Shown here: piece by piece, positions 4,535 through 20,032 of the stretch
How positions within the stretch are numbered: position 1 is the stretch's first letter
Layout of the letters: every line of letters begins with the position of its first letter
Source: Candidatus Saccharimonadota bacterium
GTDB taxonomy: Bacteria > Bacillota_I > Bacilli_A > Mycoplasmatales > Hepatoplasmataceae
Assembly: GCA_027925325.1 (NCBI GenBank)
Contig: AP027133.1
Coordinates: forward strand, 570,001 to 602,000
Direction: 5' to 3'
DNA length: 32,000 nucleotides
The notes under the pieces: generated by a model
Told to the model about the DNA's origin: nothing
The model's input: only the letters and a program-made list of their open reading frames with translations
The model's database searches: none
Translations under genes and position numbers: made by a program

Positions 4535-5584
4535 TTAAATTTCTCGTGTATATTTATCTGCTAAATTACTATTACTTTCGATATATTCAACTTTTATTTG
4601 CAAATGATTATTATTAATTAATTTAAATGATTGATCCATATAATCTTTTGCTTTTGTTTTACTATTCACTTTCCCTTTTTTGATTCAAGAAATTATTGTT
4701 TTGTTATCTTCATATACCAAACAATTATCTATTTCATTTTTTATTAAATATTTAACAAATTGTAAAAATGCAAAAGCCTCTATTTCATTTGCCCATTCAC
4801 ATTCAGAATTTTCTTTTTTACTTAATAATTGGCCTTTTTGATCAGCAATTATTGCAAGTCCTATTTTATTTTTATTTGAAGAAATGGCTCCATCAATATA
4901 AAAAATATTATTATTTGAATTATTGTTGTTGTTTTTATTTAAATTTTTAATATATTTTGCAAAATCTAAATAAAAAATAACAGTTGAAATTTGACTTAAA
5001 AAAGATAATAAATCTTTTTCTTTTGCAATCTTTTTGATTTTATTATTAAAATGAATATAAAAATTATCGAGAAGTCCTTCATTAAAAATTTGTTTTAAAT
5101 TATCTTTTTCCCCTTTAATAAAAAAATATAATTTTTTTAAATTATCTTTTTGATAATTAATATCGGTTGAATTTAAAATATCTTTTATTAAATTATCTGC
5201 ACTTTCATTAGTAACAGATAAAGATTTTTTTTCATTTAAAATTGAACTTATGATTTTAATAATTTCATTTCTATTTTGCAATAATTTTTGATTATTGTTA
5301 AATTTTGAATTTTTATCTAAATGAATTTTAATTCTTTTTAAAAAAGAAATTTTTCCATCATAATCTAATTCATCAAAAATTTTTCTCATTTTTTTTCAAT
5401 TTGATAAATCTTTAAAAACTTCAAAAATTTGATTATCCTTTAAGTTTGTCTTTTTTACAAAATCACTAATAAAATTAGAAAATTCTTTATAATCTTCACT
5501 TATTAATGTAACTTTCCCGTTTTTAGGATTTCAAAGTAATTCAAGTATCTTATCAATCGCGATTTTTAATTCATATTCTTCCAT
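4535..5584 (-). CDS. RNase H (type 1 fold) domain protein with ~190 aa uncharacterised N-terminal extension, 349 aa
   Basis: Track ORF 4685..5389 extends both ways through TGA (4685-4687, 5396-5398, 5531-5533), from ATG at 5582-5584 to TAA at 4535-4537. DEDD-like pattern: FYIDGA, ANEIEAFAFLQ, VYEDNKTIISW, SNSNLADKY. Confidence 0.7.
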
Positions 5585-5596
5585 TTAAACTCAATT

Positions 5597-6373
5597 TTAT
5601 TTTCCTCTCAATACTAGTCAATCAGCAATTTCAGCATAGATATTTTCTTTTGTTTCTTGATATTTATATCGCGCTCATTTTGCTCAAAAATAAGCCGTAA
5701 AGATTCTTGCTATTACAAACTTGTAATAATCAAAATCTAAAGAAAGATTAATATAAGTTTGTAAAAAAACATCCTCTTGTTTTTTTGTTAATTTTCTTTT
5801 TACAATAAAACTCGCAAGATCTAAATATTTGCTATTAATTCCACCATATTCATAATCAATAATTTTAATATTATCATTATTTAAAATTAAAATATTACCA
5901 TCTACAATATCATTATTTGCATAAACAAGATCCTTGTTTAAAAATTTTAACACTTCTTCTAAGATAATACTTTCATTTGGATAATTAAAAATTTCTTTTT
6001 GTGTATTTAAAAAATTTCAAGTTTTTAAAAAATTAGGTTCTCTTAATTTTGTATTATTTTTAATTTTAATATTATGAAGTCGATAAATTTCTTTTGCACA
6101 ATTAATCAAAATTTGATCTTTTACCTCTTCTGTTTTAAACGCTTTATGTTTAATTATTTTTGTACAAAAATAATTATTTTCAATCTCTAAATAATCAAAA
6201 ACTTTTAATTCTTTCAAAATTAAAATTTCTTGATTTCCATAAACATCAGTAAATTTGTTTTTAACAAAAAACTTACAAATAATATCATTTTTATAATAAA
6301 CATTATTTGATAATCCAATTTTATCTTTTGCTCAATTAGGATCAATTTTAATTATTTTTTCGTTTTTTTTCAT
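5597..6373 (-). CDS. choline/aminoglycoside phosphotransferase-family kinase (LicA-like), 258 aa
   Basis: ORFs 6017..6217 and 5684..5953 are in one frame, joined by TGA codons. Brenner-like NNDIVDGNIL followed by IIDYEYGG. The ATG at 6371-6373 overlaps the pyrG 3' end by 26 nt (alternative ATG at 6386-6388). Stop is TAA at 5597-5599. Confidence 0.7.
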
Positions 6374-7955
6374 ACTGATAAGCGGCATTAATAAAAGATT
6401 CAAAAAGTGGATCTAATTTATATAAGGTCGTATTGAATTCAGGATGAAATTGAACACCAATATAAAAATCATTATTTTTATATTCGACAATTTCCACTAA
6501 ATTATTTTCCGGATTAATTCCTGAAAATAATAATCCTTTTTGTTCTAATTCCTTTTTATATTTATTATTAAACTCATAACGATGGCGATGTCTTTCCTTT
6601 ATCATACTTTTCTTATATATTCTTTTTGCAAGCGTATTATCAATTAATTTACAATTATATTCACCCAAACGCATTGTTCCACCTAATTTTTTTAAATCTT
6701 GATCTTTAAGTAAATGAATAATAAAATTATTTTTATTTGGATTTAATTCTTCATGATAAACATTTAATTTAGCGATATTTTTGGCAAATTCTAAAATTAA
6801 TAATTGCATCCCAAAACATATTCCAAGTAATGGAATATTATTTTCTCTTGCATATTTAATTGCACTAATTTTTCCTGAAGTTCCTTCAATTCCAAATCCT
6901 CCAGCGATAATTATTCCTGAAAAATTTTTTAAATCATTTACATTTAAAGATTTTGCATCAAATAATTCTATTTTTAAAGAAATTTTTTGATAAATGGAAA
7001 TAATTCTTAATGATTCAATAATTGAAAGATAAGAATCTTTTAAATTATGATATTTACCAACTATTACAATTTTAATTTCGCCAATTTTTTGATCTTTAAT
7101 TAATTTATCAATCAATTGATAATTTTTAATTGGTGAATATTTTAAATTTAAATTTAAAATATCTGCAATTTTTTGATCAATTTTTTCATCTACTAATTTT
7201 TGAGGAATTTGATAAACACTATCAACGTTTTCAAGTTCAAAAATATAATCTTTGTGAACACTACAATTAGCTGAAATTTTATCAATGATTGTAGAAGAGA
7301 TTTTTTCTTCACTTCGTGTTACGAGAAAATTAGGAAAAACACCAAGACTATGCAATTGTTTCACACTATGCTGAAAAGGTTTACTTTTATATTCTTTATT
7401 TATTTTAAGAAAGGGAATAAAACCAATATGAATATTTATGACATTTTCTCTTTGAAACTGCAATTGTCTAATCGTTTCAAAGTAAGGAATAGATTCAATA
7501 TCACCAACCGTACCACCAATTTCAACAACTAAAAGATCATATCCATTTAAATTTTTTAATACAAGTTCAATAATTTTGTCGATAACATTAGGAATAATTT
7601 GAACTGTTTTACCCAAATATTTTCCCTTTCGTTCATCTTCTATTAAATTACTATAAATTTTTCCTGAACTAATTGAAGAATTTTTTGTAAGATTTTGATT
7701 AATAAATCTTTCATAATGACCAATATCTAAATCTGTTTCTCCGCCATCTCTAGTAACAAAAACCTCTCCATGTTCAATTGGTGAAATTGTCCCTGGATCA
7801 ACATTTAAATAAGGATCAAATTTCATCATATTTACTTTTAATTTTCTTTCTTTAAAGATAGAAGCAAGCGAAGCAGAAAAAATACCTTTTCCTAATGATG
7901 ATAATACTCCACCTGTTATAAAAATTATCTTCCCATTTATTTTTCTATAATTCAT
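6348..7955 (-). CDS. pyrG: CTP synthase, 535 aa
   Basis: Intact ORF. FITGGVLSSLGKGI N-terminus, GGTVGDIES, glutaminase domain LGICFGMQ and HRHRYE. Confidence 0.97.
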   Translation of the reverse strand: MNYRKINGKIIFITGGVLSSLGKGIFSASLASIFKERKLKVNMMKFDPYLNVDPGTISPIEHGEVFVTRDGGETDLDIGHYERFINQNLTKNSSISSGKIYSNLIEDERKGKYLGKTVQIIPNVIDKIIELVLKNLNGYDLLVVEIGGTVGDIESIPYFETIRQLQFQRENVINIHIGFIPFLKINKEYKSKPFQHSVKQLHSLGVFPNFLVTRSEEKISSTIIDKISANCSVHKDYIFELENVDSVYQIPQKLVDEKIDQKIADILNLNLKYSPIKNYQLIDKLIKDQKIGEIKIVIVGKYHNLKDSYLSIIESLRIISIYQKISLKIELFDAKSLNVNDLKNFSGIIIAGGFGIEGTSGKISAIKYARENNIPLLGICFGMQLLILEFAKNIAKLNVYHEELNPNKNNFIIHLLKDQDLKKLGGTMRLGEYNCKLIDNTLAKRIYKKSMIKERHRHRYEFNNKYKKELEQKGLLFSGINPENNLVEIVEYKNNDFYIGVQFHPEFNTTLYKLDPLFESFINAAYQYEKKRKNN

Positions 7956-9517: not shown

Positions 9518-10429
9518 TTATTTATATAATTCTGTATCAATTAATTTAACTTCCGTAAAATCAATCTTATTTAAATTGGCTTTATCAAAATTTACCGCTT
9601 TTAATTCGGCTCCTTTTAAATTAGCTTTTGCAAGATTTGCTCTACTTAAATTTACATTAAGTAATTTAGCATTACTAAAATCAACATGAGATAAATTTGC
9701 ATAAGATAAATCTACATTTTCAAGAATTGCATTTTTTCAAGTTGATAAATTTAAATTAGATTTACTTAAATCTGTCTTTTTTAAAGTTGTTCCATTAAAA
9801 TTAGCATAACTGAAATTTGTTTTATTAAAATTACAATTTATAAATTTAGCATTAATAAAACTTCCTTTTTTAAGAGACATATTTTTAAAATTTGTTTTAT
9901 TAAAATTTGCTCCATCAAAAATCGGAGCAATAAAATTTAAATAGCTAAATTTTGCATCCAAAAGATTTGTATTACTAAAATTAACTTTTCTTAATTTTTC
10001 GCCAATAAAATTTATTAAAAATTTTTTATTATTAATTGAAAAATTACTTAGATTAGCATTTGTAAGATCACTTTTTGCAAATCTAATTTTTCTGAAATTA
10101 GCATCAGTAAGATTTACATCATTAAAGTTAGCATCAGTAAAATTAACTTTTAAAAAATTTGCTTTAGTAAGAGTTGCATTTTTAAAATTTGCTTCTGATA
10201 AATTACATTTTATGAAATTAGATTCCTTTAAATTTGTCTCTATAAAATTTGCCATCTTTAAATTAGATTTTTTAAATAATGAAAAACTTAAATTTGCTTT
10301 ACTAAAATTAATTTTATTTAAATTTGATTTTGCAAAAAGAGAATTATTTAAATTTTTGGTTGAAAAATTAATTCCTGTTAAATTTTTATTTTTAATTTCT
10401 GTAATTTCTTTTTTATTATTATTTTCCAT
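9518..10429 (-). CDS. pentapeptide-repeat protein, 303 aa, repeats over essentially the whole length
   Basis: A(N/D)(L/F)xx repeats run from NLTGINFSTKNLNNSLFAKSNLNKINFSKANL to ANLKGAELKAVNFDKANLNKIDF. ORF 9737..10429 continues through TGA at 9737-9739 to TAA at 9518-9520. The SD AAAGGA lies in the 11 nt gap after the upstream helicase stop. Confidence 0.9.
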
Positions 10430-10440
10430 AAAATTCCTTT

Positions 10441-13400
10441 CTATAAATTAATAGTATTTTTAATAATTTTTTCAATATTATTTAATTCCATTTTTTGATT
10501 ATTAAATCAATTTGAAATTCAAATACGATAAAAATTATAACCTCTTTCTTTTAAAAAGTCTTGCTTTGAAATATCTCTCTCTCTTACAGATTTATAAGAA
10601 TTTTTAATCGCCTGATCAGATTCTATCAAAAGAATTATTTTATGATTTTCATCATAAAATAAAAAATCTGCTTTATATCCATAAGTTTTATCTCTATTTA
10701 TTACATATAAATTATATCTTTTTGCTATCTTTATAAGTTCTTGATATAAATCTTTTTCAAATTTAGAATTAAAATTTTTAATACTAAATTGATTTTGATT
10801 GATTATTTTTTTATTATTATATGACTTAATACAATGTTTTAAAAATCTATAAAGAATATAAATTCCACTTTCTAAATTATCTTTATGTGCTTGATTACGA
10901 ATAAAAAAATTCTCAAAATCATTTTGTCTAATTGACGTAATTACATACATTTTTAATTTTGCTCTTGTAACCGCAACATTAATTCTATTTACTCCGCCAA
11001 ATTTATTAATTGGACCAAAATTAAAAGATATTTTTCCTTCTTCATTTCTTCCATACAAAGTTGAAAAAATAATTATATCCCTTTCGTCCCCCTGAACATT
11101 TTCAATATTTTTAACAAAAAGATTGACATCATCACTATTAATTCAATTAGAAAAATTAAAATCATTATAACTTATACTTGCTAATTTCTCTGAAAGATAT
11201 TTTTCTTGTTTTGAGTTCATTGTAATAATTCCAATAGATTTTTTATTTAAATTTAAATTATTTTTAATTTGATATAAAATTTCTATAATTTTATCGATCT
11301 CGTTATGATTAAGTCCATTTTTATAAATTGAATCTTTTAATTCAAAATATTCTATCGGTTGAAAATTTTTATTTTTTCCATTTTTACTAATAAATATAAG
11401 ATTATCATTATAAAAAATATTATTTGAATATTCAATTAATTCCTTAAAATCAGAACGATAATGATATTTAAGCATAATATGTGGAAATTTAGTTTTTGCA
11501 TAATTTAACAATGACAATTTATCATCAATTAAATTTTTCTCCTCAAATTTTTCAAATTCTTGATCAATATTTCTTGATACAAAAAAATTGGTTGGAGCTA
11601 ATTGCTTTTCATCTCCTAAAATTACAACTTTTTTAGATCTTTCAATCGCAGGTAAACTTCTTTCAATAAACATCTGTGAAGCTTCATCAAAAATAACAAG
11701 ATCAAACTTATCCTTAAGATCAAAAATACTTGAAATTGTCTCAGGATTTAATAATCAAATTTTATATAAATTCTTAAAGGTATCTTTTTCAGTTTTTAAA
11801 AACATTTTGATACCTCATTTTTTTTTCGGATCAAAAACTATTCTTTTAAATTGGGGCGATGAATTTTCAAAATTTATTAAAAATTGCTTTGCTAAATAAT
11901 ACTTTGTTATTTCCGAGAATTTTTTAATTTTTGTTTGTCTTAAATTTATAAATTTATCATAATTATTTTTTCAATCAAATATTTGATCTCTTAATTTAAA
12001 TATATATTTATATTTATTAAGTCTTTCTCGAAAAATTTTAAATTCTATTATTTGCAAAAGTTTATCAAATTTTATTTTCTGACTTTTTATATAGTTAATA
12101 AAATCTTTTAGAAATGAAAATTCTTCTTCAGAAAAATTTTTTATTATTTGAAATTTGTTAAATTTCAAAGTTACATTTTGCTCTTCTTTTTTATATTTTG
12201 TAATTAATTTTTCCTGATTTTTTAAATTATCAAAAAAAATCTTATTATATAAATCTTCTATTTTAGTTTTAGTTTGATGATAATTTTTTAAATTTAAAAG
12301 ACAATTTTGCAAAAATGTAATCATTTCTGTCATATCTTGATTTACTTGTAAATCTCTTTTTAAACCGGCGAATTTTCGATCATATTTTCTTTTGCTATTT
12401 AAAAATTTTTTCTTTAAAAGGAAAAAATTGTTTTTTAAATTTAAATATTTTTCTTCAATATTTTCCTTTTTCAAATAATTTGAAAATATATTAAAAACAA
12501 AATTATTTTTAATTACCAAATTAATATAATCAACTAAAAATGGTGTAAAAACTGAAAGATATATTAAATCATCACAAATCTTAAATAATTGTTCAAATCG
12601 ATCAATTGGATAATCAATTAGAAATGAGCTTAAACGATCATTTCTAAGATATTCATAAATATCTTTATATTTTTTTTCATTTCAATTTTGTAATAAATCT
12701 TTTCATAATAAAGATATCGTCTTTTTTTCTTTTTTTAATTCTTCTTTTTTTCCATTAATCAAAAAATTAAAATAATCAGAAATATCACCATCGTTTTTTT
12801 TAATAAAATCCAAACCATAAATATTAGCTATTTCATCTCTTAATTTGATCATTTGTTCAATTTTCGATAATAAATTATTTTCAAATAATTCTTTTATTTT
12901 ATTTAAAAAAATAGAAAAATTATTATTTTTATTTCCTTCATTTAAAATAAAAGAGTTGATTTTTTCATCATAAATACTCTCTTTTAAAAATTCATTAAAA
13001 TTTTTAAATTTAAAATAAAACTCCTCAATTAATTCATATATTTTTTTATTTTCAAAAAATTCAATATCTTTATAAAAATCAATTGAATCCATATTTTTTA
13101 AATACTCTACAATTTGATCTGATAAATTGTCAATCTTATTAATTTCTTCTTGAAATTTTTTATCATTAATAAATTCAAATTTTTCTGTTTCTAATATTTT
13201 TTTTGCCGCTTCATAAGATTGATTTATCTGTTGATAAAAATCACCTTTATTATTCATATCTGTAAGATAAAACGCAAATTTATTTAAATTATTCAATCTT
13301 TGATAAATAACATCAAGCGCAGCTCTTTTTTCTGAAACTAAAGCAATTTTTTTATTTTTTAAAATAGCATCATAGATGATTGATAAAATTGTTTGTGATT

Positions 13401-14505
13401 TTCCTGTTCCAGGAGGTCCTCAAATAACTAAATTATTAGTCTTATTTTCATTTATTTTTTTTAAAGCAAAAAACTGTTGATTATTTAAATTATCAATATA
13501 AAATAATCCTTTTTCATCAAGATTATATGCATTTTTTTCAATATGATTATCAAACAAAAATTGAGAATTTTTTTGTGAATTTTTTTTATTTACTAAACTA
13601 TATCTTTCTAGTTGTTTTGTAAAATATCCTTTTTCTAAAATTAAATTTAGATCTCTTTTTACAGCATTATCATACTTATCAAAAAAACCGATTGTAAAAC
13701 TTTTTTCTATCTTAAAAAGAAAATTAAATTTTTCAATGTTACTATAATCTTTAAATTGATCTAAATTATCAGAATAAGATTCAAGATAGGTAATAATTTC
13801 TTTTTTATTTCTTTTAAAATTAACAAATAAATTTTTAATATTTGATAAAAATGATTTTTCATAATCAAAATAATAATCTTTATTTTTTAAAAAATTTTCA
13901 ATTATAAAATTGTTAACTATAACATCTCTTGTATTATCATAATACATTCTTACTTTATGTAAATTATTATCAAATATTAAAATTATCGGAACAAAAAAAA
14001 TTGGTGATCTAATAGGAATTGTCTTATTTATATTTGTAAAATTTGTAAGAAAATAATAAGGGACAAAATAAAAGGTTTGATAACCGATTTCATTTTTAAT
14101 TTTTTGATTTTCTTTTTCAATATTATTAAAAATTAAAAAATTTTTTTCTTGATCTGTTTTTTTACTAGAAATTTTTTTTCTAATTTTTCTACAATATATT
14201 TTTTCTTTATTTTTTATATAAAATAAATTAAAATTTTTAATAAAATTTTCCTTATTTTCAATAATATTCAATTTTAAATCAACTTTTAAATTCTTAATAT
14301 CTTTTTTTAAAAAGCTATTTAATTTTAATAATGATTCTTCTTGTAAATTGGAAATTGAAAAATTATAATTAGTACTTTTCGATGTTCAAATATTGCGATT
14401 TCTCTTATTTAAATTTGTTAGCTTTTTTTGAAAATTTTCTAATTCCTGTTTAAATTTTTCTGATATCTTTATTTTTTGCAAATTATTTTCTTCTTTATGC
14501 TTCAT
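10441..14505 (-). CDS. DUF4011-like N-terminal domain + Upf1/DNA2-type SF1 helicase (AAA_11/AAA_12-like) + C-terminal Vsr/DUF559-like endonuclease domain, 1354 aa
   Basis: Five track ORFs (10519..11058, 11143..11673, 11971..12519, 12703..13296, 13420..14271) share one frame. I walked the junctions I could not infer from the track, and found only TGA (10 in total). ATG at 14503-14505 is preceded by AGGAGA; stop is TAG at 10441-10443. Motifs: LTNLNKRNRNIW (DUF4011-like), GPPGTGKSQT, DLVIFDEASQM, VILGDEKQLAPT, YHYRS, VQGDERDIIIFS, RINVAVTRAK. Nuclease tail: YKADFLFYD...LLIESDQ...ERDISKQDFLKERGYNFYRIWISNWF. Confidence 0.9.
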
Positions 14506-14619
14506 TTCTTATCTCCTAAATTTTCAAAAAAATGAATAAGTAAAATTATTATATATTTTTATAAAAATATAAAATTAAGATATTTTTTAAATATTTAATT
14601 AAAATATAATTAATTTAGA

Positions 14620-15348
14620 ATGACTAATGAAGAATTAATTTTTATTAAAAACAATAATTATGATTATTATTTAAGAATAATAACAAAAATAGAAGATGAG
14701 TATCAAAAAAGTAAAAAAATAAAACTAGCAAATATTTTTTCTGCTTTTTTTTATTATCTTGGTTATTTAATTTTGATTACTTTATTTCAAAACGCCGCTG
14801 CTTTAAGTTTTGCAAAAAAAGGACAATTTAGAAAAGCTGCTTTATATGCATTGCTTGGTTTAAATATTTTTTTCTTTTTATATTTAGGAGAAAGTAAAAA
14901 ATGAAAAAAACATTATAATCAAAAAATTAAAAAAATAAATTTAACTCAAGAAATTCAAGAAAAAATTAAAAATCAAGAATTTTTAAAAGGCTTAACAGAA
15001 GATAAATTAGAATTAATTAAAAAAGAAAAATTATTTAATACAAATCCTCCTAAAGATAAAATCAAATTAGGCTTAGTTTATGGCTCAAGTGTAAGAGCTA
15101 AAAATTTATTTAAAGATATTGGGGCAAATATTGTAAATGTAAGTGGAGGAAAAATGCAAAGTTATTTTTATCTTTTAAATGATGCAAGAGAAGATGCGAT
15201 CGAACAGATGATTAAAAATGCAATATTAACCTACGGTGAATTAGATAATAAAGAAATTCATAATATAAGATTATCAACATCACAAATTGCAAATGGTGCA
15301 AGTGAAATTTTAGTATATGGAACGGTTGTTAAAAATAAAAATTCTTAA
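14620..15348 (+). CDS. membrane-anchored YbjQ/DUF74 (UPF0145) family protein, 242 aa
   Basis: ORFs 14620..14904 and 15154..15348 are in the same frame, joined by TGA at 14902-14904; the linker was checked codon by codon. Two hydrophobic segments (IFSAFFYYLGYLILITLF, AALYALLGLNIFFFLYLG). C-terminal YbjQ-like GLVYGSSVRAKNLFKDIGANIVNVSGGK...AREDAIEQM...ILVYGTVV. Confidence 0.75.
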
Positions 15349-17096
15349 TTTATTAAAATTACAGCAAATTTTTTATTCTCAGTTTCCATTTTACTTACAA
15401 GTTCTTTGATTTGCTTTTCCTCTAAATAATCATCATGTCTTATTTGTTCAAAATTTCTTAAACCCATTTCCCCAATCATTTGATAAAGGGATGCAAGTGA
15501 ATTTATTGCTCTCAATTCAAAATGAATTTCATAAATTTTATTAGGAAGAAAATCTCGATCACTATTATAATAAAGAATCTTTTTTGGTTGTTTAAAAATA
15601 TTTTGTTCAAATTCTTGTTTTAAATAATTTTCAATTGCAAAAATCATCTCTAATAATTTTAGAGTATCAATTTTTTCTATATCATCTTTAATACTATGCA
15701 ATCCTTTTTCTAAAGATAATATTTTTGTGCTTCCAATTTGATCTCTTTCAAAAATATTTATTTTAAATTGACTATCATATAGAAAAGGTGAATGTGTTGC
15801 AAATATAATGTATATACTCTTAAATAATTCCTTATTTTTTGCAATTAAATTTTTTAAATATTTTTTTAATTCAATTTGTAAAGGAATTGATAAATTATTT
15901 TCCGGTTCATCAACCATAATAATTTTAATTTGATCATTAGAATTATCATGAATAATAGAATTTAAAGTAATAATAAAATCTAAAAAGACCTTTGCTCCAT
16001 TACTATTATTTTTACTTTCGTTACTTCCTATTAATCAATCACCTTTAGAATTAAATTGTAATTTTATTTGATTATTTGTAATATTTATTTTAATTTCAAA
16101 ATCAATGAATTCAAAATTTTGTAAAACCTTTTTTAAATTATTTCGAATCTTTTCTTCAATTTTTGATTTTTCTTCATTTTTTTCATTTCCATTAGGCATT
16201 TCATAATAAAATTTTAATTGTTCTTTTTCAGGATATAAAAAATTTAAAATATCATTAATTCTTGCCTTTTCCGAAAAAGCTTCACCTGTATTTATTCTTT
16301 CAAACAAATAATTTAAATCAAAATTATATTCAAGATCATTAATTCTTGAATTATTTTTAAGATAAACAATTTCAGGTTTCTTGATCAAAATTTTTTCAAT
16401 ATTTAAAAAAACTCTAAAAATAAATTCAGTTTTTAAATAAATTTTAGTGTTATCTATATTTAAATAAGCAATCTCAGAAGTTAATTCAAATCTTCCTTTG
16501 CTTTTTGCATATGAAATTACTCTTTTAATCTTATTAAATATTTTTTCTAATAATTTTTGTGTTTTTAGACCAACATTGTAATCTCTAAATTCCTGATAAA
16601 AATTTTTATAGAAATCTTCATTATTAGGATTTTTAAGATATTCAAAAATAATTTTTTTATAAATTGAATTATTATCAAGTGCATGTAAATAATTATTATT
16701 AGAATCTACTCCTACTTTTCTTCCTTCATTTCGAAAAATATTCATATATTTATCTTTTAAACTCTTTGGAAATAAATAATTTAAACTATTTTCTAATATT
16801 TTTAATTCTTTTTCCGAAAAATTATAATTAATAAAAACTCTCGATACGATATCTTCTTCTTTTTGGATCGCAAAATTTATTTTTTCAGAACCCTTAATAT
16901 CACGTAAAAATTTAGTTCTTAAATCTAAATTATTTCTTCTTAAAAAAGTTACCGCTTCTAAAAAAGATGTTTTCCCAGAAGAATTTAAACCCAAAAGTAA
17001 ATTTATATTATTACTATATAAATCTATCTTTTGTTTTTTAAAGATTGTCTTTATCCCCTCTACTTCAAAAGAAATTTTATTTTCTTCTATATTCAT
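15345..17096 (-). CDS. AAA_15/AAA_21-type (ABC/SMC-like) ATPase, 583 aa, no recognisable nuclease module
   Basis: ORFs 16035..17096 and 15345..15917 are joined by a single TGA at 16035-16037; the gap was checked. Walker A GLNSSGKTSFLEA, signature-like SNGAKVFLDF, Walker B IIMVDEPENNLS, H-loop FATHSPFL. SD GGAGAA upstream of the ATG at 17094-17096. Stop is TAA at 15345-15347. Confidence 0.85.
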
Positions 17097-19404: not shown

Positions 19405-19665
19405 TTAATTTTTAATACAGGAAATAATCGTTCAAGTATCAGGTCATCAATCAGTTCCGATAAGCGTATCACAAAAAGCAATAAAGAGAAATGCAATTAA
19501 GATAAATAACAAAATATATTTTACTAAAAAATAAATTCCCTTAAAAAAATAATTAATAAAAAAATTAACAATGATTACAATGATTACTATCAGAAAAATC
19601 AATATTATTATTCAGAAGAGCATGATTCAATATCATGCTCAATCACTATAAAAATTATTAACCAT
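19405..19665 (-). CDS. small Trp-rich two-TM membrane protein, paralog A (86 aa)
   Basis: Hand translation with table 4: MVNNFYSDWAWYWIMLFW...LFIAFCDTLIGTDWWPDTWTIISCIKN. All 7 Trp are TGA, so it is invisible in the standard-code track. Weak SD; the start is uncertain. Confidence 0.55.
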
Positions 19666-19735
19666 AAAATTTCTTAATTCTTTAATAAAGTTAATTATTT
19701 ATTTTATTAATTTAATTGCCATTTATTCAATCGAC

Positions 19736-20032
19736 TAAATTTCAACTTGATGGTCATCAATCTGTTCCAATAAACGTATCACAAAAAGCAATAAATAGAA
19801 AAACAGAAAGAGCAACACCAACAATCGGACCGATAATTTTAAAAATTAAAGCAAGTGAAAATTTAAAAATAAATTTTAATAATATAAATATAAAAATAAA
19901 AGCAAGAATTGCAATTAGTAATCAGAAAATGAAAGTTCAATATCATTCTCAATCGCTATAAAATGCACCAACTGAATTACCCAAACTTGCCCCTAATTGT
20001 CCAAAATCATTATACACAGATTTTAATTTCAT
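19736..20032 (-). CDS. small Trp-rich two-TM membrane protein, paralog B (98 aa)
   Basis: ATG at 20030-20032 preceded by AGGAAAGAG. MKLKSVYNDFGQLGASLGNSVGAFYSDWEWYWTFIFW...LFIAFCDTFIGTDWWPSSWN. 7 TGA-Trp. TAG stop at 19736-19738. Shares the FYSDWxWYW and FIAFCDTxIGTDWWP blocks with paralog A. Confidence 0.65.

What the first reader, a model, noticed from the sequence alone, without database searches (positions are those of the whole stretch)
10441..14505. Giant single-polypeptide helicase-nuclease (DUF4011-like + Upf1-type SF1 helicase + Vsr/DUF559-like endonuclease) hidden behind 10 UGA codons
The track shows five unrelated-looking ORFs. They are one 4065 nt frame interrupted only by TGA at 10507, 10519, 11143, 11755, 11815, 11971, 12682, 12703, 13420 and 14386.

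All catalytic motifs are intact:
- helicase: GPPGTGKS, DEASQ, GDEKQLAPT, YHYRS, QGDERDIIIFS, NVAVTRAK;
- endonuclease tail: ADFLF...IESDQ...RD...GYNFYRIWISNWF, the pattern seen at the C-terminus of DUF4011/AAA_11/AAA_12 proteins.

This makes it a live enzyme rather than a relic, which is remarkable for a reduced genome in which it costs about 4 kb.

Walker A (about 13400) and Walker B (about 11690) are separated by about 565 aa of K/N/E/I-rich, probably coiled-coil sequence, much longer than I expect for the 1B/1C insertions of this family.

The helicase + nuclease single-chain layout recalls single-protein anti-phage enzymes such as Nhi and Hna. The link to Nhi rests on my recollection of its domain content, not on a search.
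Basis: partly seen in the sequence, partly recalled or inferred. Interest (0 to 1): 0.8.

Follow-up and report, generated by a model that had tools for sequence, protein, structure and literature searches.

The report
DUF4011 helicase-nuclease gene of Hepatoplasma
This is one intact 4 kb gene for a DNA helicase fused to a DNA-cutting domain in a tiny crustacean-gut bacterium; it belongs to a widespread known protein family and looks "hidden" only because this bacterium reads the UGA codon as tryptophan.

Summary
Window 10441-14505 (minus strand) is a single 1354-codon frame with 10 TGA codons at the stated positions, no TGG codons, and all the quoted motifs.

The "hiding" is ordinary. The window is from Candidatus Hepatoplasma scabrum (genetic code 4). 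Its 25 ORFs contain 65 in-frame TGA and 2 TGG codons. GenBank already lists this gene as one 1354-aa hypothetical protein.

Domains:
- divergent DUF4011 N-terminus
- Upf1/Dna2-type SF1B helicase (AAA_11/AAA_12)
- C-terminal MTES_1575/DUF559 endonuclease

The best profile matches are the PADLOC candidate PDC-S37, NCBI's anti-phage ProA, and Hhe. All score far below the curated cutoffs and mainly match the C-terminal half. Nhi and Hna did not match.

The long Walker A to Walker B insert is a family trait: 420-520 aa in relatives and 577 aa here. It is predicted to be all-helical.

The gene is under purifying selection (dN/dS 0.23). It is syntenic in four Hepatoplasma lineages. It belongs to a clade of 17 sequences; the ten whose genes were inspected are TGA-recoded (Mollicutes).

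Its neighbours, and those of its closest relatives, are mostly housekeeping genes. An anti-phage role is therefore plausible by homology but unproven, and a genome-maintenance role is a serious rival.

Verdict: a new member of a known kind, of modest interest.

The parts
10441..14505 (-). Complete CDS of the 1354-aa helicase-nuclease (code 4; 10 TGA = Trp; TAG stop)
   Evidence: The product is 100% identical to GenBank protein HPPSJP_5240 of Ca. Hepatoplasma scabrum. dN/dS is 0.23 against the H. crinochetorum orthologue.
14513..14517 (-). Shine-Dalgarno-like AGGAG, 7 nt upstream of the ATG at 14505
   Evidence: Read directly from the sequence. The promoter scan was uninformative in this AT-rich DNA: 90 sites found against 79 expected.
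13606..14448 (-). N-terminal divergent DUF4011 region (about aa 20-300); an alpha/beta domain with no recognisable solved fold
   Evidence: Orthologue P0003 passes the Pfam DUF4011 cutoff and P0005 scores 42 bits. BLASTP to P0005 gives 1e-40 and to P0025 gives 1e-4. AF2 pLDDT is above 90 for aa 120-280. Foldseek finds no hit at E <= 0.001 in PDB or BFVD. The N-terminal HRDC domain seen in relatives is absent here.
13231..13488 (-). Helicase domain 1A, first part, with Walker A GPPGTGKS (nt 13396-13419) and motif Ia
   Evidence: Pfam AAA_11, AAA_19 and AAA_30 hits at aa 340-412. Columns G363-S370, K393, A396 and others are invariant in 120 sequences.
11761..13230 (-). All-helical insert of about 490 aa between Walker A and Walker B (aa 426-915)
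   Evidence: Relatives have 420-578 aa between the two motifs. The AF2 model shows helices only, up to 62 residues long, with pLDDT 55-80. dN/dS is 0.28. No PDB structure covers it.
12226..12828 (-). Expansion inside the insert (about aa 560-760) largely confined to the Hepatoplasma branch
   Evidence: Alignment occupancy in other family members is 0.12-0.33 across these windows. dN/dS is 0.27.
10921..11760 (-). Rest of the helicase core (1A end plus 2A): Walker B DEASQ (nt 11674-11688) and motifs III, IV, V and VI
   Evidence: Pfam AAA_11 at aa 928-972 and AAA_12 at aa 1006-1191. Foldseek and HMM matches to SETX/Sen1, Upf1, IGHMBP2, Dna2, Aquarius, ZNFX1 and nsp13. dN/dS is 0.10.
10468..10761 (-). 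C-terminal MTES_1575/DUF559 (Vsr-like) endonuclease domain, aa 1249-1346
   Evidence: Pfam PF18741 at 54.1 bits against a cutoff of 38.2. D1280, E1295, D1297, R1308, E1309, D1311, R1321, G1322, W1329 and W1333 are conserved across 26 relatives. A family profile hits PDB 3hrl, 'endonuclease-like protein', at E = 1.8e-5.
9518..10429 (-). Neighbour, probably co-transcribed: 303-aa pentapeptide-repeat protein. A functional link is not shown.
   Evidence: It starts 11 nt after the helicase stop and has its own AAAGGA. Pfam Pentapeptide E = 3.8e-53. It lies downstream of the helicase in four Hepatoplasma lineages. It is absent next to relatives elsewhere.
15345..17096 (-). Neighbour: 583-aa AAA_15/AAA_21 ABC-type ATPase, weakly AriA/PtuA-like. 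A functional link is not shown.
   Evidence: It is conserved upstream of the helicase in four Hepatoplasma lineages and absent near relatives elsewhere.

Best explanation
The region is one functional gene of Candidatus Hepatoplasma scabrum. Its protein has four parts:
- an N-terminal DUF4011 domain
- a split SF1B (Upf1/Dna2-like) helicase core
- a roughly 490-aa all-helical insert within that core
- a C-terminal MTES_1575/DUF559 (Vsr-like) endonuclease

It is a divergent, vertically inherited Mollicutes branch of the DUF4011 helicase-nuclease superfamily. The named members of that superfamily (Hhe, NCBI's ProA, PADLOC candidate PDC-S37) are single-gene anti-phage proteins.

Most likely mechanism:
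- The DUF4011 domain and helical insert recognise or clamp a DNA substrate (inferred).
- The motor uses ATP to move 5'->3' along single-stranded DNA. This is inferred from the known polarity of Upf1-like SF1B helicases.
- The C-terminal nuclease nicks or cleaves the DNA being tracked. This is inferred from intact acidic residues D1280, E1295 and D1297. A point mutation (E1731A) in the Vsr-like nuclease domain of Hhe abolishes Hhe defence; that residue was not aligned to this protein here.
- The most probable biological role is restriction of invading DNA (phage, ICE or plasmid) in an extracellular gut symbiont that lacks restriction-modification systems.

Confidence differs by level. The molecular identity is about 0.9 certain. 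The defence role is only about 0.5.
For: Gene integrity:
- The frame is intact with an SD and ATG.
- dN/dS is 0.23 overall and 0.10 in the helicase core, comparable to MetRS (0.20) and TatD (0.24).
- Orthologues of 1351-1353 aa occur at 63-73% identity in three other Hepatoplasma lineages.

Domains:
- Pfam AAA_11, AAA_12 and MTES_1575 all score above cutoff.
- DUF4011 is supported through orthologues.
- The helicase core matches Upf1, Sen1/SETX, IGHMBP2 and Dna2 by sequence and by predicted fold.
- All helicase and nuclease motif residues are conserved in 26-120 relatives.

Kinship with defence proteins:
- PADLOC PDC-S37 at E = 2.5e-121 and Hhe at E = 1.6e-69.
- NCBIfam antiphage_ProA at E = 1.9e-110 and Hhe_antiphage at E = 1e-85.
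- Hhe protects E. coli, and a point mutation in its Vsr-like domain abolishes protection (bioRxiv 10.1101/2022.06.16.496414).
- Relatives occur on 441 plasmid records, including Klebsiella plasmids annotated as hhe and a Spiroplasma citri plasmid where the homologue sits next to a restriction enzyme.
- Relatives also occur on about 20 IMG/VR contigs.
- Larger relatives have pAgo, retron, PD-Lambda-1 and PDC-S02 neighbours.

Organism context:
- The published H. scabrum genome analysis lists no restriction-modification system, only CRISPR-Cas9 (PMC10928387).
- An AAA_15/AAA_21 ATPase of a kind common in defence systems lies 840 nt upstream.
Against: - Scores are far below the curated equivalog cutoffs: ProA 370 bits against 1500, and Hhe 288 bits against 2000. 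The best-scoring stretches cover mainly the C-terminal half.
- The gene behaves like a stable chromosomal gene rather than a mobile defence gene. It occupies the same block (TatD, AAA_15, YbjQ, helicase, pentapeptide, MetRS) in four Hepatoplasma lineages.
- It falls in a 17-sequence clade. The ten members whose genes were inspected are TGA-recoded Mollicutes genes. Within it a second conserved synteny (helicase, ybeY, dgkA, cdd, era) occurs in the Tyloplasma lineage.
- The 101 neighbours of the closest non-mollicute relatives (26 loci) are mostly housekeeping genes: thyA and folA in 4 loci, ddl, mur ligases. No PADLOC family matched more than 2 of them.
- Those relatives carry an N-terminal HRDC domain, as repair helicases do.
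- A DUF4011 gene is a core gene in all P. aeruginosa isolates (PMC10250203).
- No experiment exists for this branch.
Confidence: 0.5

Rival explanations
1. The enzyme is the same, but its role is genome maintenance rather than immunity. It would be a vertically inherited, Dna2-like helicase-nuclease that processes DNA ends, flaps, stalled forks or R-loops. It would be retained in Hepatoplasmataceae because reduced genomes have few alternative end-processing enzymes.
For: - The gene is syntenic in four Hepatoplasma lineages and lies in a clade with other TGA-recoded Mollicutes genes.
- Its dN/dS equals that of housekeeping neighbours.
- It is kept in genomes of about 0.6 Mb.
- Neighbours of the closest relatives are housekeeping genes, with a recurring thyA-folA adjacency.
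- Relatives carry an HRDC domain.
- The helicase core resembles Dna2, Sen1 and IGHMBP2.
- A DUF4011 gene is core in P. aeruginosa.
Against: - No member of the superfamily has a demonstrated repair role. The only functional labels found for members are anti-phage: Hhe, tested in E. coli, and ProA, so named by NCBI.
- The M. hominis homologue is interrupted by an ICE in a viable strain, so it is dispensable there (PMC12228374).
- The distribution across bacteria and archaea is patchy, and relatives sit on plasmids and proviruses.
- The HRDC domain is lost in the Hepatoplasma branch.
Confidence: 0.35
2. The helicase-nuclease is one component of a multi-gene module specific to the genus Hepatoplasma: the AAA_15 ATPase, the YbjQ-domain membrane protein, the helicase-nuclease and the pentapeptide-repeat protein. 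The co-transcribed pentapeptide protein, a fold known from Qnr and MfpA to mimic DNA, would regulate or inhibit the enzyme.
For: - There is an 11-nt gap between the helicase stop and the pentapeptide start.
- AAA_15, helicase and pentapeptide genes keep the same order in H. scabrum and in loci L001, L089 and L090, down to about 60% identity. The YbjQ gene lies between AAA_15 and the helicase in all but L001.
- The AAA_15 protein has weak AriA/PtuA-like matches.
Against: - None of the partner genes accompanies the helicase in any of more than 120 other loci, including other Hepatoplasmataceae.
- The block is flanked by housekeeping genes that are equally syntenic, so co-linearity may only reflect the general genome collinearity reported for these species.
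- The YbjQ gene is on the opposite strand and is missing in H. crinochetorum Ps.
- The pentapeptide, YbjQ and AAA_15 proteins meet no family cutoff beyond generic domains.
Confidence: 0.1
3. The frame is a decaying relic or an assembly artefact and makes no functional protein.
For: The genome is a metagenome-assembled genome. The gene is large for a reduced genome. The window protein alone fails the Pfam DUF4011 threshold.
Against: - The 1354-codon frame has no TAA or TAG in DNA of about 18% GC.
- All motifs are intact.
- dN/dS is 0.23, and 0.27 even in the lineage-specific insert.
- Orthologues of the same length occur in independent assemblies.
Confidence: 0.02

Closest known systems
PADLOC candidate PDC-S37 / NCBIfam NF058533 'anti-phage protein ProA'
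   Same: These are the best-scoring profiles: PDC-S37 at E = 2.5e-121 (405 bits) and ProA at E = 1.9e-110 (370 bits). They share the same superfamily and the same helicase 2A plus C-terminal MTES_1575 layout. Every relative tested of the ~1200-1450 aa class also scores best on PDC-S37, at 414-577 bits.
   Different: The profiles are 1550 and 1903 positions long. The best stretch covers only aa 705/723-1352 of the window protein. The ProA equivalog cutoff of 1500 bits is missed by a factor of four. PDC-S37 is a candidate, not a validated system. I could not find the ProA publication in the held library.
Hhe (DUF4011 helicase plus Vsr-like endonuclease; single-gene anti-phage protein of E. coli). 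I attribute the original report to Gao et al. 2020 from my own knowledge. Its properties are taken here from bioRxiv 10.1101/2022.06.16.496414.
   Same: It has the same domain order: DUF4011, then an SF1 helicase, then a C-terminal Vsr/DUF559-type nuclease. Its nuclease-domain residue E1731 is needed for defence. PADLOC Hhe scores E = 1.6e-69 and NCBIfam Hhe scores E = 1e-85.
   Different: Hhe profiles are about 1800-1900 positions against 1354 aa here. Only aa 898/933-1344 match. The score is 288 bits against a cutoff of 2000. Hhe is plasmid- or island-borne, whereas this gene is chromosomal, syntenic and vertically inherited.
Upf1-like SF1B helicases (Upf1, Sen1/SETX, IGHMBP2, Dna2, Aquarius, ZNFX1, nidovirus nsp13)
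   Same: The RecA-like 1A/2A core and all helicase motifs match. Foldseek E-values are 4e-12 to 1e-8 and profile HMM E-values go down to 2e-20. Dna2 is also a helicase-nuclease fusion.
   Different: These helicases have short 1B/1C insertions rather than a ~490-aa helical insert. They have no DUF4011 and no MTES_1575 domain. The Dna2 nuclease is an N-terminal PD-(D/E)xK domain of a different family. Most act on RNA or in eukaryotic pathways.
DUF559 / MTES_1575 / Vsr-like endonuclease domains (for example PDB 3hrl)
   Same: The C-terminal 100 aa match PF18741 above cutoff. The family profile hits 3hrl at E = 1.8e-5. The D...ExD...RERD...RGW..R.W pattern is conserved.
   Different: Stand-alone DUF559 proteins are about 100-130 aa. 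Here the domain is the tail of a 1354-aa motor protein. Activity and substrate are untested.
Nhi and Hna
   Same: Only the general concept is shared: one polypeptide combining a helicase and a nuclease that defends against phage (PMC11232893).
   Different: Nhi has an N-terminal HsdR-like nuclease and a DUF2075 SF1 helicase, about 610 aa. Hna has an SF2 helicase and a C-terminal PD-(D/E)xK nuclease, about 840 aa. No Nhi or Hna model appears among the PADLOC hits at E <= 1. I did not verify that both models are in that library version.

Membership tests
DUF4011 / SF1B helicase / MTES_1575 helicase-nuclease superfamily | N-terminal DUF4011 domain (PF13195) | tested here: met
   The window protein itself has no Pfam hit at E <= 1. 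Its 73%-identical orthologue P0003 scores 27.8 bits against a cutoff of 22.2, and P0005 scores 42.4 bits. The window N-terminus aligns over those regions at 1e-40 and 1e-4. G141, P168 and N198 are invariant in 91 sequences.
DUF4011 / SF1B helicase / MTES_1575 helicase-nuclease superfamily | Upf1-like SF1 core (AAA_11 plus AAA_12) with intact motifs I-VI, split by a long insert | tested here: met
   AAA_11 scores 55.7 bits and AAA_12 scores 65 bits against cutoffs of 27. Motif residues are invariant in 120 sequences. The insert is 420-578 aa in all relatives inspected.
DUF4011 / SF1B helicase / MTES_1575 helicase-nuclease superfamily | C-terminal MTES_1575/DUF559 endonuclease with conserved acidic residues | tested here: met
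   PF18741 scores 54.1 bits against a cutoff of 38.2. D1280, E1295, D1297, R1308 and D1311 are conserved.
Hhe (NCBIfam NF042953 equivalog) | Full-length score at or above the curated cutoff (2000 bits) | tested here: not met
   The score is 288 bits, and only aa 898-1344 match profile positions 1245-1676 of 1797.
ProA (NCBIfam NF058533 equivalog) | Full-length score at or above the curated cutoff (1500 bits) | tested here: not met
   The score is 370.5 bits. The best stretch is aa 705-1350 against profile positions 1070-1705 of 1903.
PADLOC PDC-S37 | Match to model PDLC05009 over most of its length | tested here: inconclusive
   E = 2.5e-121 (405 bits) in two stretches. The best covers profile positions 726-1342 of 1550. 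This tool gives no PADLOC cutoff or coverage rule. The relatives tested score 414-577 bits.
Nhi | N-terminal HsdR-like nuclease plus C-terminal DUF2075 SF1 helicase | tested here: not met
   There is no DUF2075 Pfam hit and no Nhi PADLOC hit. The nuclease is C-terminal and of the MTES_1575 type.
Hna | SF2 helicase plus C-terminal PD-(D/E)xK nuclease, about 840 aa | tested here: not met
   The core is SF1B. There is no Hna PADLOC hit.
Anti-phage defence gene (functional class) | Enrichment of known defence genes in the neighbourhood (defence-island context) | tested here: not met
   The window neighbours are MetRS, TatD, MnmE and CTP synthase, plus one weakly AriA/PtuA-like ATPase. Among 101 neighbours of 26 close relatives, no PADLOC family matched more than 2, and only one type I R-M locus was seen. 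The larger relatives show more defence neighbours. The sample is small and was not tested statistically.
Anti-phage defence gene (functional class) | Experimental protection against phage or plasmid that depends on ATPase and nuclease residues | not testable with these tools
   This needs a recoded gene and challenge assays.

The most novel reading that the evidence does not exclude
The helicase-nuclease and the pentapeptide-repeat protein encoded 11 nt downstream form a two-gene unit in the genus Hepatoplasma. The pentapeptide protein, a right-handed beta-helix of the Qnr/MfpA DNA-mimic type, would occupy the DNA-binding groove of the enzyme. It would keep the nuclease silent until a trigger displaces it. 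That would be a built-in DNA-mimic regulator of a DUF4011 helicase-nuclease, which has not been described for Hhe, ProA or PDC-S37. The evidence does not exclude this: the gene pair is conserved in four lineages. Nothing positive supports it beyond adjacency, and the pairing is absent everywhere else.
Probability: 0.08. Interest if true: 0.6.

Novelty: new member of a known kind. Interest (0 to 1): 0.25.

Why it matters
The practical lesson is that this window must be read with genetic code 4. Once that is done, the "five ORFs" become an already-annotated single gene.

The biological interest is modest:
- The published genome analysis of Hepatoplasmataceae lists only restriction-modification and CRISPR-Cas9 as defence genes (PMC10928387). 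It does not mention this 4-kb helicase-nuclease, which is retained in genomes of about 0.6 Mb.
- If it is a defence enzyme, it adds a second immune layer to H. scabrum, which has no restriction-modification system.
- If it is a maintenance enzyme, it would show that part of the DUF4011 superfamily, now being labelled "anti-phage" by homology (Hhe, ProA), has a housekeeping role. That would matter for automated defence annotation.
- The ~490-aa helical insert and the DUF4011 domain have no solved structural counterpart. This is true of the whole family, not just of this gene.

Tried and rejected
- ProA / PDC-S37 literature: four full-text searches found no paper describing them. The original Hhe paper was not held. 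Hhe facts therefore come from a secondary source.
- Solved structures: the single-sequence and profile searches hit only helicase cores and one DUF559-like protein.
- Foldseek with the aa 1-1200 model: only Upf1-like cores matched, and nothing covered the insert.
- Foldseek with the N-terminal model against PDB and BFVD: no hit at E <= 0.001.
- The promoter/terminator scan was uninformative in 80% AT DNA: 90 sites against 79 expected.
- No tRNA gene lies in the window to document tRNA-Trp(UCA).
- I tested whether the pentapeptide, AAA_15 and YbjQ neighbours travel with the helicase outside Hepatoplasma. They do not. I therefore did not call it a multi-gene system.
It shows breadth of distribution but is not a census.
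- The first NJ attempt with Biopython timed out and was replaced by a hand-written NJ. That tree has no bootstrap support.
- I rejected the relic/pseudogene reading and Nhi/Hna membership.

Full report
**1. Observation**

Translating window 10441-14505 on the minus strand gives a single frame of 1354 codons ending in TAG.
TGG is never used.
- Under table 11 the frame splits into five ORFs of 176-283 aa.
- The ATG at 14505 has an AGGAG 7 nt upstream, and an in-frame stop lies one codon before it.
- All quoted helicase and nuclease motifs are present. Walker A is at nt 13396-13419 and Walker B at nt 11674-11688, 577 residues apart.

TGA encodes Trp. Three of the TGA codons (aa 917, 1329, 1333) align with Trp that is nearly invariant in homologues from standard-code organisms.

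This is not peculiar to this gene. The window is 17-29% GC and 96% coding under code 4. Its 25 ORFs hold 65 in-frame TGA and 2 TGG codons.

**2. Source and annotation status**

The protein is 100% identical to GenBank protein HPPSJP_5240, a "hypothetical protein" of 1354 aa from the Candidatus Hepatoplasma scabrum MAG, on a 606,194-bp contig. The paper describing that genome gives the same length for accession AP027133.1 (PMC10928387).

The gene is therefore already called as one CDS. It looks "hidden" only when a Mollicutes genome is read with table 11. The H. crinochetorum orthologue (72% identity, 1351 aa) is annotated "putative DNA helicase".

**3. Domains**

- Pfam places AAA_11 (in two pieces, around aa 340-412 and 928-972), AAA_12 (1006-1191) and MTES_1575 (1249-1346) above their cutoffs.
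- DUF4011 is not detected in the window protein itself. It is detected in orthologue P0003 (73% identity; 27.8 bits against a cutoff of 22.2, aa 28-199) and in P0005 (42 bits).
- The window N-terminus aligns across those regions at E = 1e-40 and E = 1e-4.
- Many relatives have an HRDC domain at the extreme N-terminus. The Hepatoplasma branch is about 40 aa shorter there and lacks it.
- The nuclease tail keeps D1280, E1295, D1297, R1308, E1309, D1311, R1321-G1322, W1329 and W1333, all conserved in 26 diverse relatives.

**4. The insert**

It is long compared with Upf1, but it is the norm for this family. In the 60 relatives inspected the distance is 419-578 aa, most often 421-432.

Alignment occupancy shows that only about aa 560-760 is largely confined to the Hepatoplasma branch.

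An AlphaFold2 model of aa 1-1200 (120-sequence alignment, mean pLDDT 77.6, pTM 0.68) predicts aa 420-911 as helices only. Helices reach 62 residues, with pLDDT about 55-80. Foldseek against the PDB matches only the RecA-like core: SETX/Sen1, Upf1, Dna2, IGHMBP2, Aquarius, nsp13 and ZNFX1.

**5. Family placement**

The best profile matches are:
- PADLOC PDC-S37 (E = 2.5e-121) and Hhe (E = 1.6e-69)
- NCBIfam antiphage_ProA (370 bits, cutoff 1500) and Hhe_antiphage (288 bits, cutoff 2000)

Their best-scoring stretches cover mainly aa 700-1350, and neither equivalog cutoff is approached. The six relatives tested behave the same way: 414-577 bits on PDC-S37.

Neither appears among the hits.

The protein is therefore a member of the broad DUF4011 / SF1B / MTES_1575 superfamily and a sister of Hhe, ProA and PDC-S37. 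It is not an equivalog of any of them.

**6. Distribution and inheritance**

A protein search found 558 relatives at E <= 1e-10 among the candidates scored. A scan of species-representative genomes found at least 577 loci in Clostridia, Bacillota, Methanomassiliicoccales and other archaea, Bacteroidota, Pseudomonadota, Actinomycetota and others. It also found loci in Acholeplasma, Izemoplasmatales and Spiroplasma.

Literature and plasmid-database hits add M. hominis (gene split by an ICE in a viable strain), M. bovis Mbov_0647, Mycoplasmopsis cynos, and a Spiroplasma citri plasmid.

A neighbour-joining tree on 918 well-aligned columns groups P0001-P0016 and P0018 in one clade (no bootstrap). 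The ten members whose genes I inspected are TGA-recoded Mollicutes genes.

Within Hepatoplasma the gene sits in the same block in four lineages: TatD, AAA_15 ATPase, YbjQ-domain protein, helicase-nuclease, pentapeptide-repeat protein, MetRS. In the Tyloplasma lineage it sits in a different but also conserved block: helicase, ybeY, dgkA, cdd, era.

Against H. crinochetorum, dN/dS is 0.23 for the whole gene. It is 0.10 in the core, 0.28 in the insert and 0.30 in the N-terminus. This is the same range as MetRS (0.20) and TatD (0.24). The gene is alive and constrained along its whole length.

**7. Defence or maintenance?**

For defence:
- The only functional labels found for superfamily members are anti-phage: Hhe, tested in E. 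coli, and ProA, so named by NCBI.
- Relatives are found on 441 plasmid records, many annotated hhe, and on some predicted proviral contigs.
- Among 117 neighbours of 31 larger relatives there are pAgo, retron RT, PD-Lambda-1 and PDC-S02 genes.
- The published H. scabrum genome analysis lists no restriction-modification system.
- An AAA_15/AAA_21 ATPase lies nearby.

Against defence:
- The stable synteny and vertical inheritance described above.
- Among 101 neighbours of the 26 closest non-mollicute relatives, the commonest Pfam families are thymidylate synthase and DHFR (4 loci each), D-Ala-D-Ala ligase and Mur ligases. No PADLOC family matches more than two proteins, and only one type I R-M locus appears.
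- The HRDC domain of those relatives is typical of repair helicases (established knowledge about RecQ).
- A DUF4011 gene is a core gene flanking a defence hotspot in all P. aeruginosa isolates (PMC10250203).

I rate the defence role at about 0.5 and the maintenance role at about 0.35.

**8. Mechanism**

Shown here:
- intact ATPase and helicase motifs
- intact nuclease residues
- purifying selection
- a helical insert within the helicase core and a confidently predicted DUF4011 fold

Inferred:
- 5'->3' translocation on ssDNA, from the known polarity of Upf1, IGHMBP2, Dna2 and Sen1
- DNA cleavage by the MTES_1575 tail, by analogy with the Hhe E1731A result
- substrate recognition by DUF4011 and the insert

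**9. Neighbours**

The pentapeptide-repeat gene starts 11 nt after the helicase stop and is conserved there in four lineages. Neither it, nor the AAA_15 ATPase, nor the YbjQ protein accompanies relatives anywhere else, and none meets a specific family cutoff. I treat a multi-gene module as a low-probability rival. I treat the DNA-mimic regulator idea as the most novel reading that is not excluded.

**10. Verdict**

The domain calls are right and the gene is alive. However, the "hiding" is trivial, the long insert is family-typical, the Nhi/Hna link is wrong, and the anti-phage role is unproven.
- This is a new member of a known kind.
- Interest is 0.25.

Noticed in passing
window 9518-10429 (-): A 303-aa pentapeptide-repeat protein (Pfam E = 3.8e-53) starts 11 nt after the helicase-nuclease stop. 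It is conserved in that position in four Hepatoplasma lineages and is not found next to relatives elsewhere. It resembles Qnr/HetL repeats only generically, and no family cutoff is met.
   Followed up: partly
window 15345-17096 (-): A 583-aa AAA_15/AAA_21 ABC-type ATPase with weak AriA/PtuA/MAD3-like matches. It is 83% identical to the H. crinochetorum orthologue (dN/dS 0.15). It could be a separate defence-type or SMC/RecF-like ATPase. The C-terminal ~130 aa are unassigned.
   Followed up: partly
window 14620-15348 (+); L001 3518-5707: A membrane protein with a C-terminal YbjQ_1 domain lies between the helicase and the ATPase genes on the opposite strand. It is absent from the H. crinochetorum Ps locus. 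There a 729-aa gene sits between TatD and the ATPase, so this is a small variable spot in an otherwise collinear region.
   Followed up: partly
window 5597-6388 and 6348-7955 (-): The CTP synthase ORF and a choline-kinase-like ORF overlap by 41 nt in different frames. In H. crinochetorum Ps they are called as one fused 786-aa product. This is either a frameshift or assembly error in one genome, or a real fusion/fission.
   Followed up: no
window 4535-5584 (-): A 349-aa protein with a C-terminal RNase H / RVT_3-like domain has no counterpart at the syntenic position in H. crinochetorum Ps.
   Followed up: no
window 19405-19665 and 19712-20032 (-): Two small tandem paralogous proteins are Trp-rich and probably membrane proteins. 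They have 7 and 8 TGA codons in 86 and 106 codons, so they are invisible under table 11.
   Followed up: no
L087 (Spiroplasma citri plasmid pSciBLHMB-7) 3815-7413: A DUF4011 helicase-nuclease homologue is split into two adjacent CDSs (621 and 576 aa) on a Spiroplasma plasmid. Two genes downstream lies an NgoFVII-family restriction endonuclease. This is an MGE-borne and possibly decaying relative in another mollicute.
   Followed up: no
L085 4570-5982: In one TGA-recoded (Mollicutes) contig (GCA_947330515.1), the helicase-nuclease homologue P0007 lies directly downstream of a TraG/VirD4-type coupling protein. This suggests an ICE context for that copy.
   Followed up: no
L009, L023, L026, L036 (Clostridia/Bacillota MAGs): In four loci the ~1220-1290 aa family member lies next to a thymidylate synthase (276 aa) and DHFR (166 aa) gene pair. 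This is a recurring housekeeping adjacency among the closest non-mollicute relatives.
   Followed up: partly
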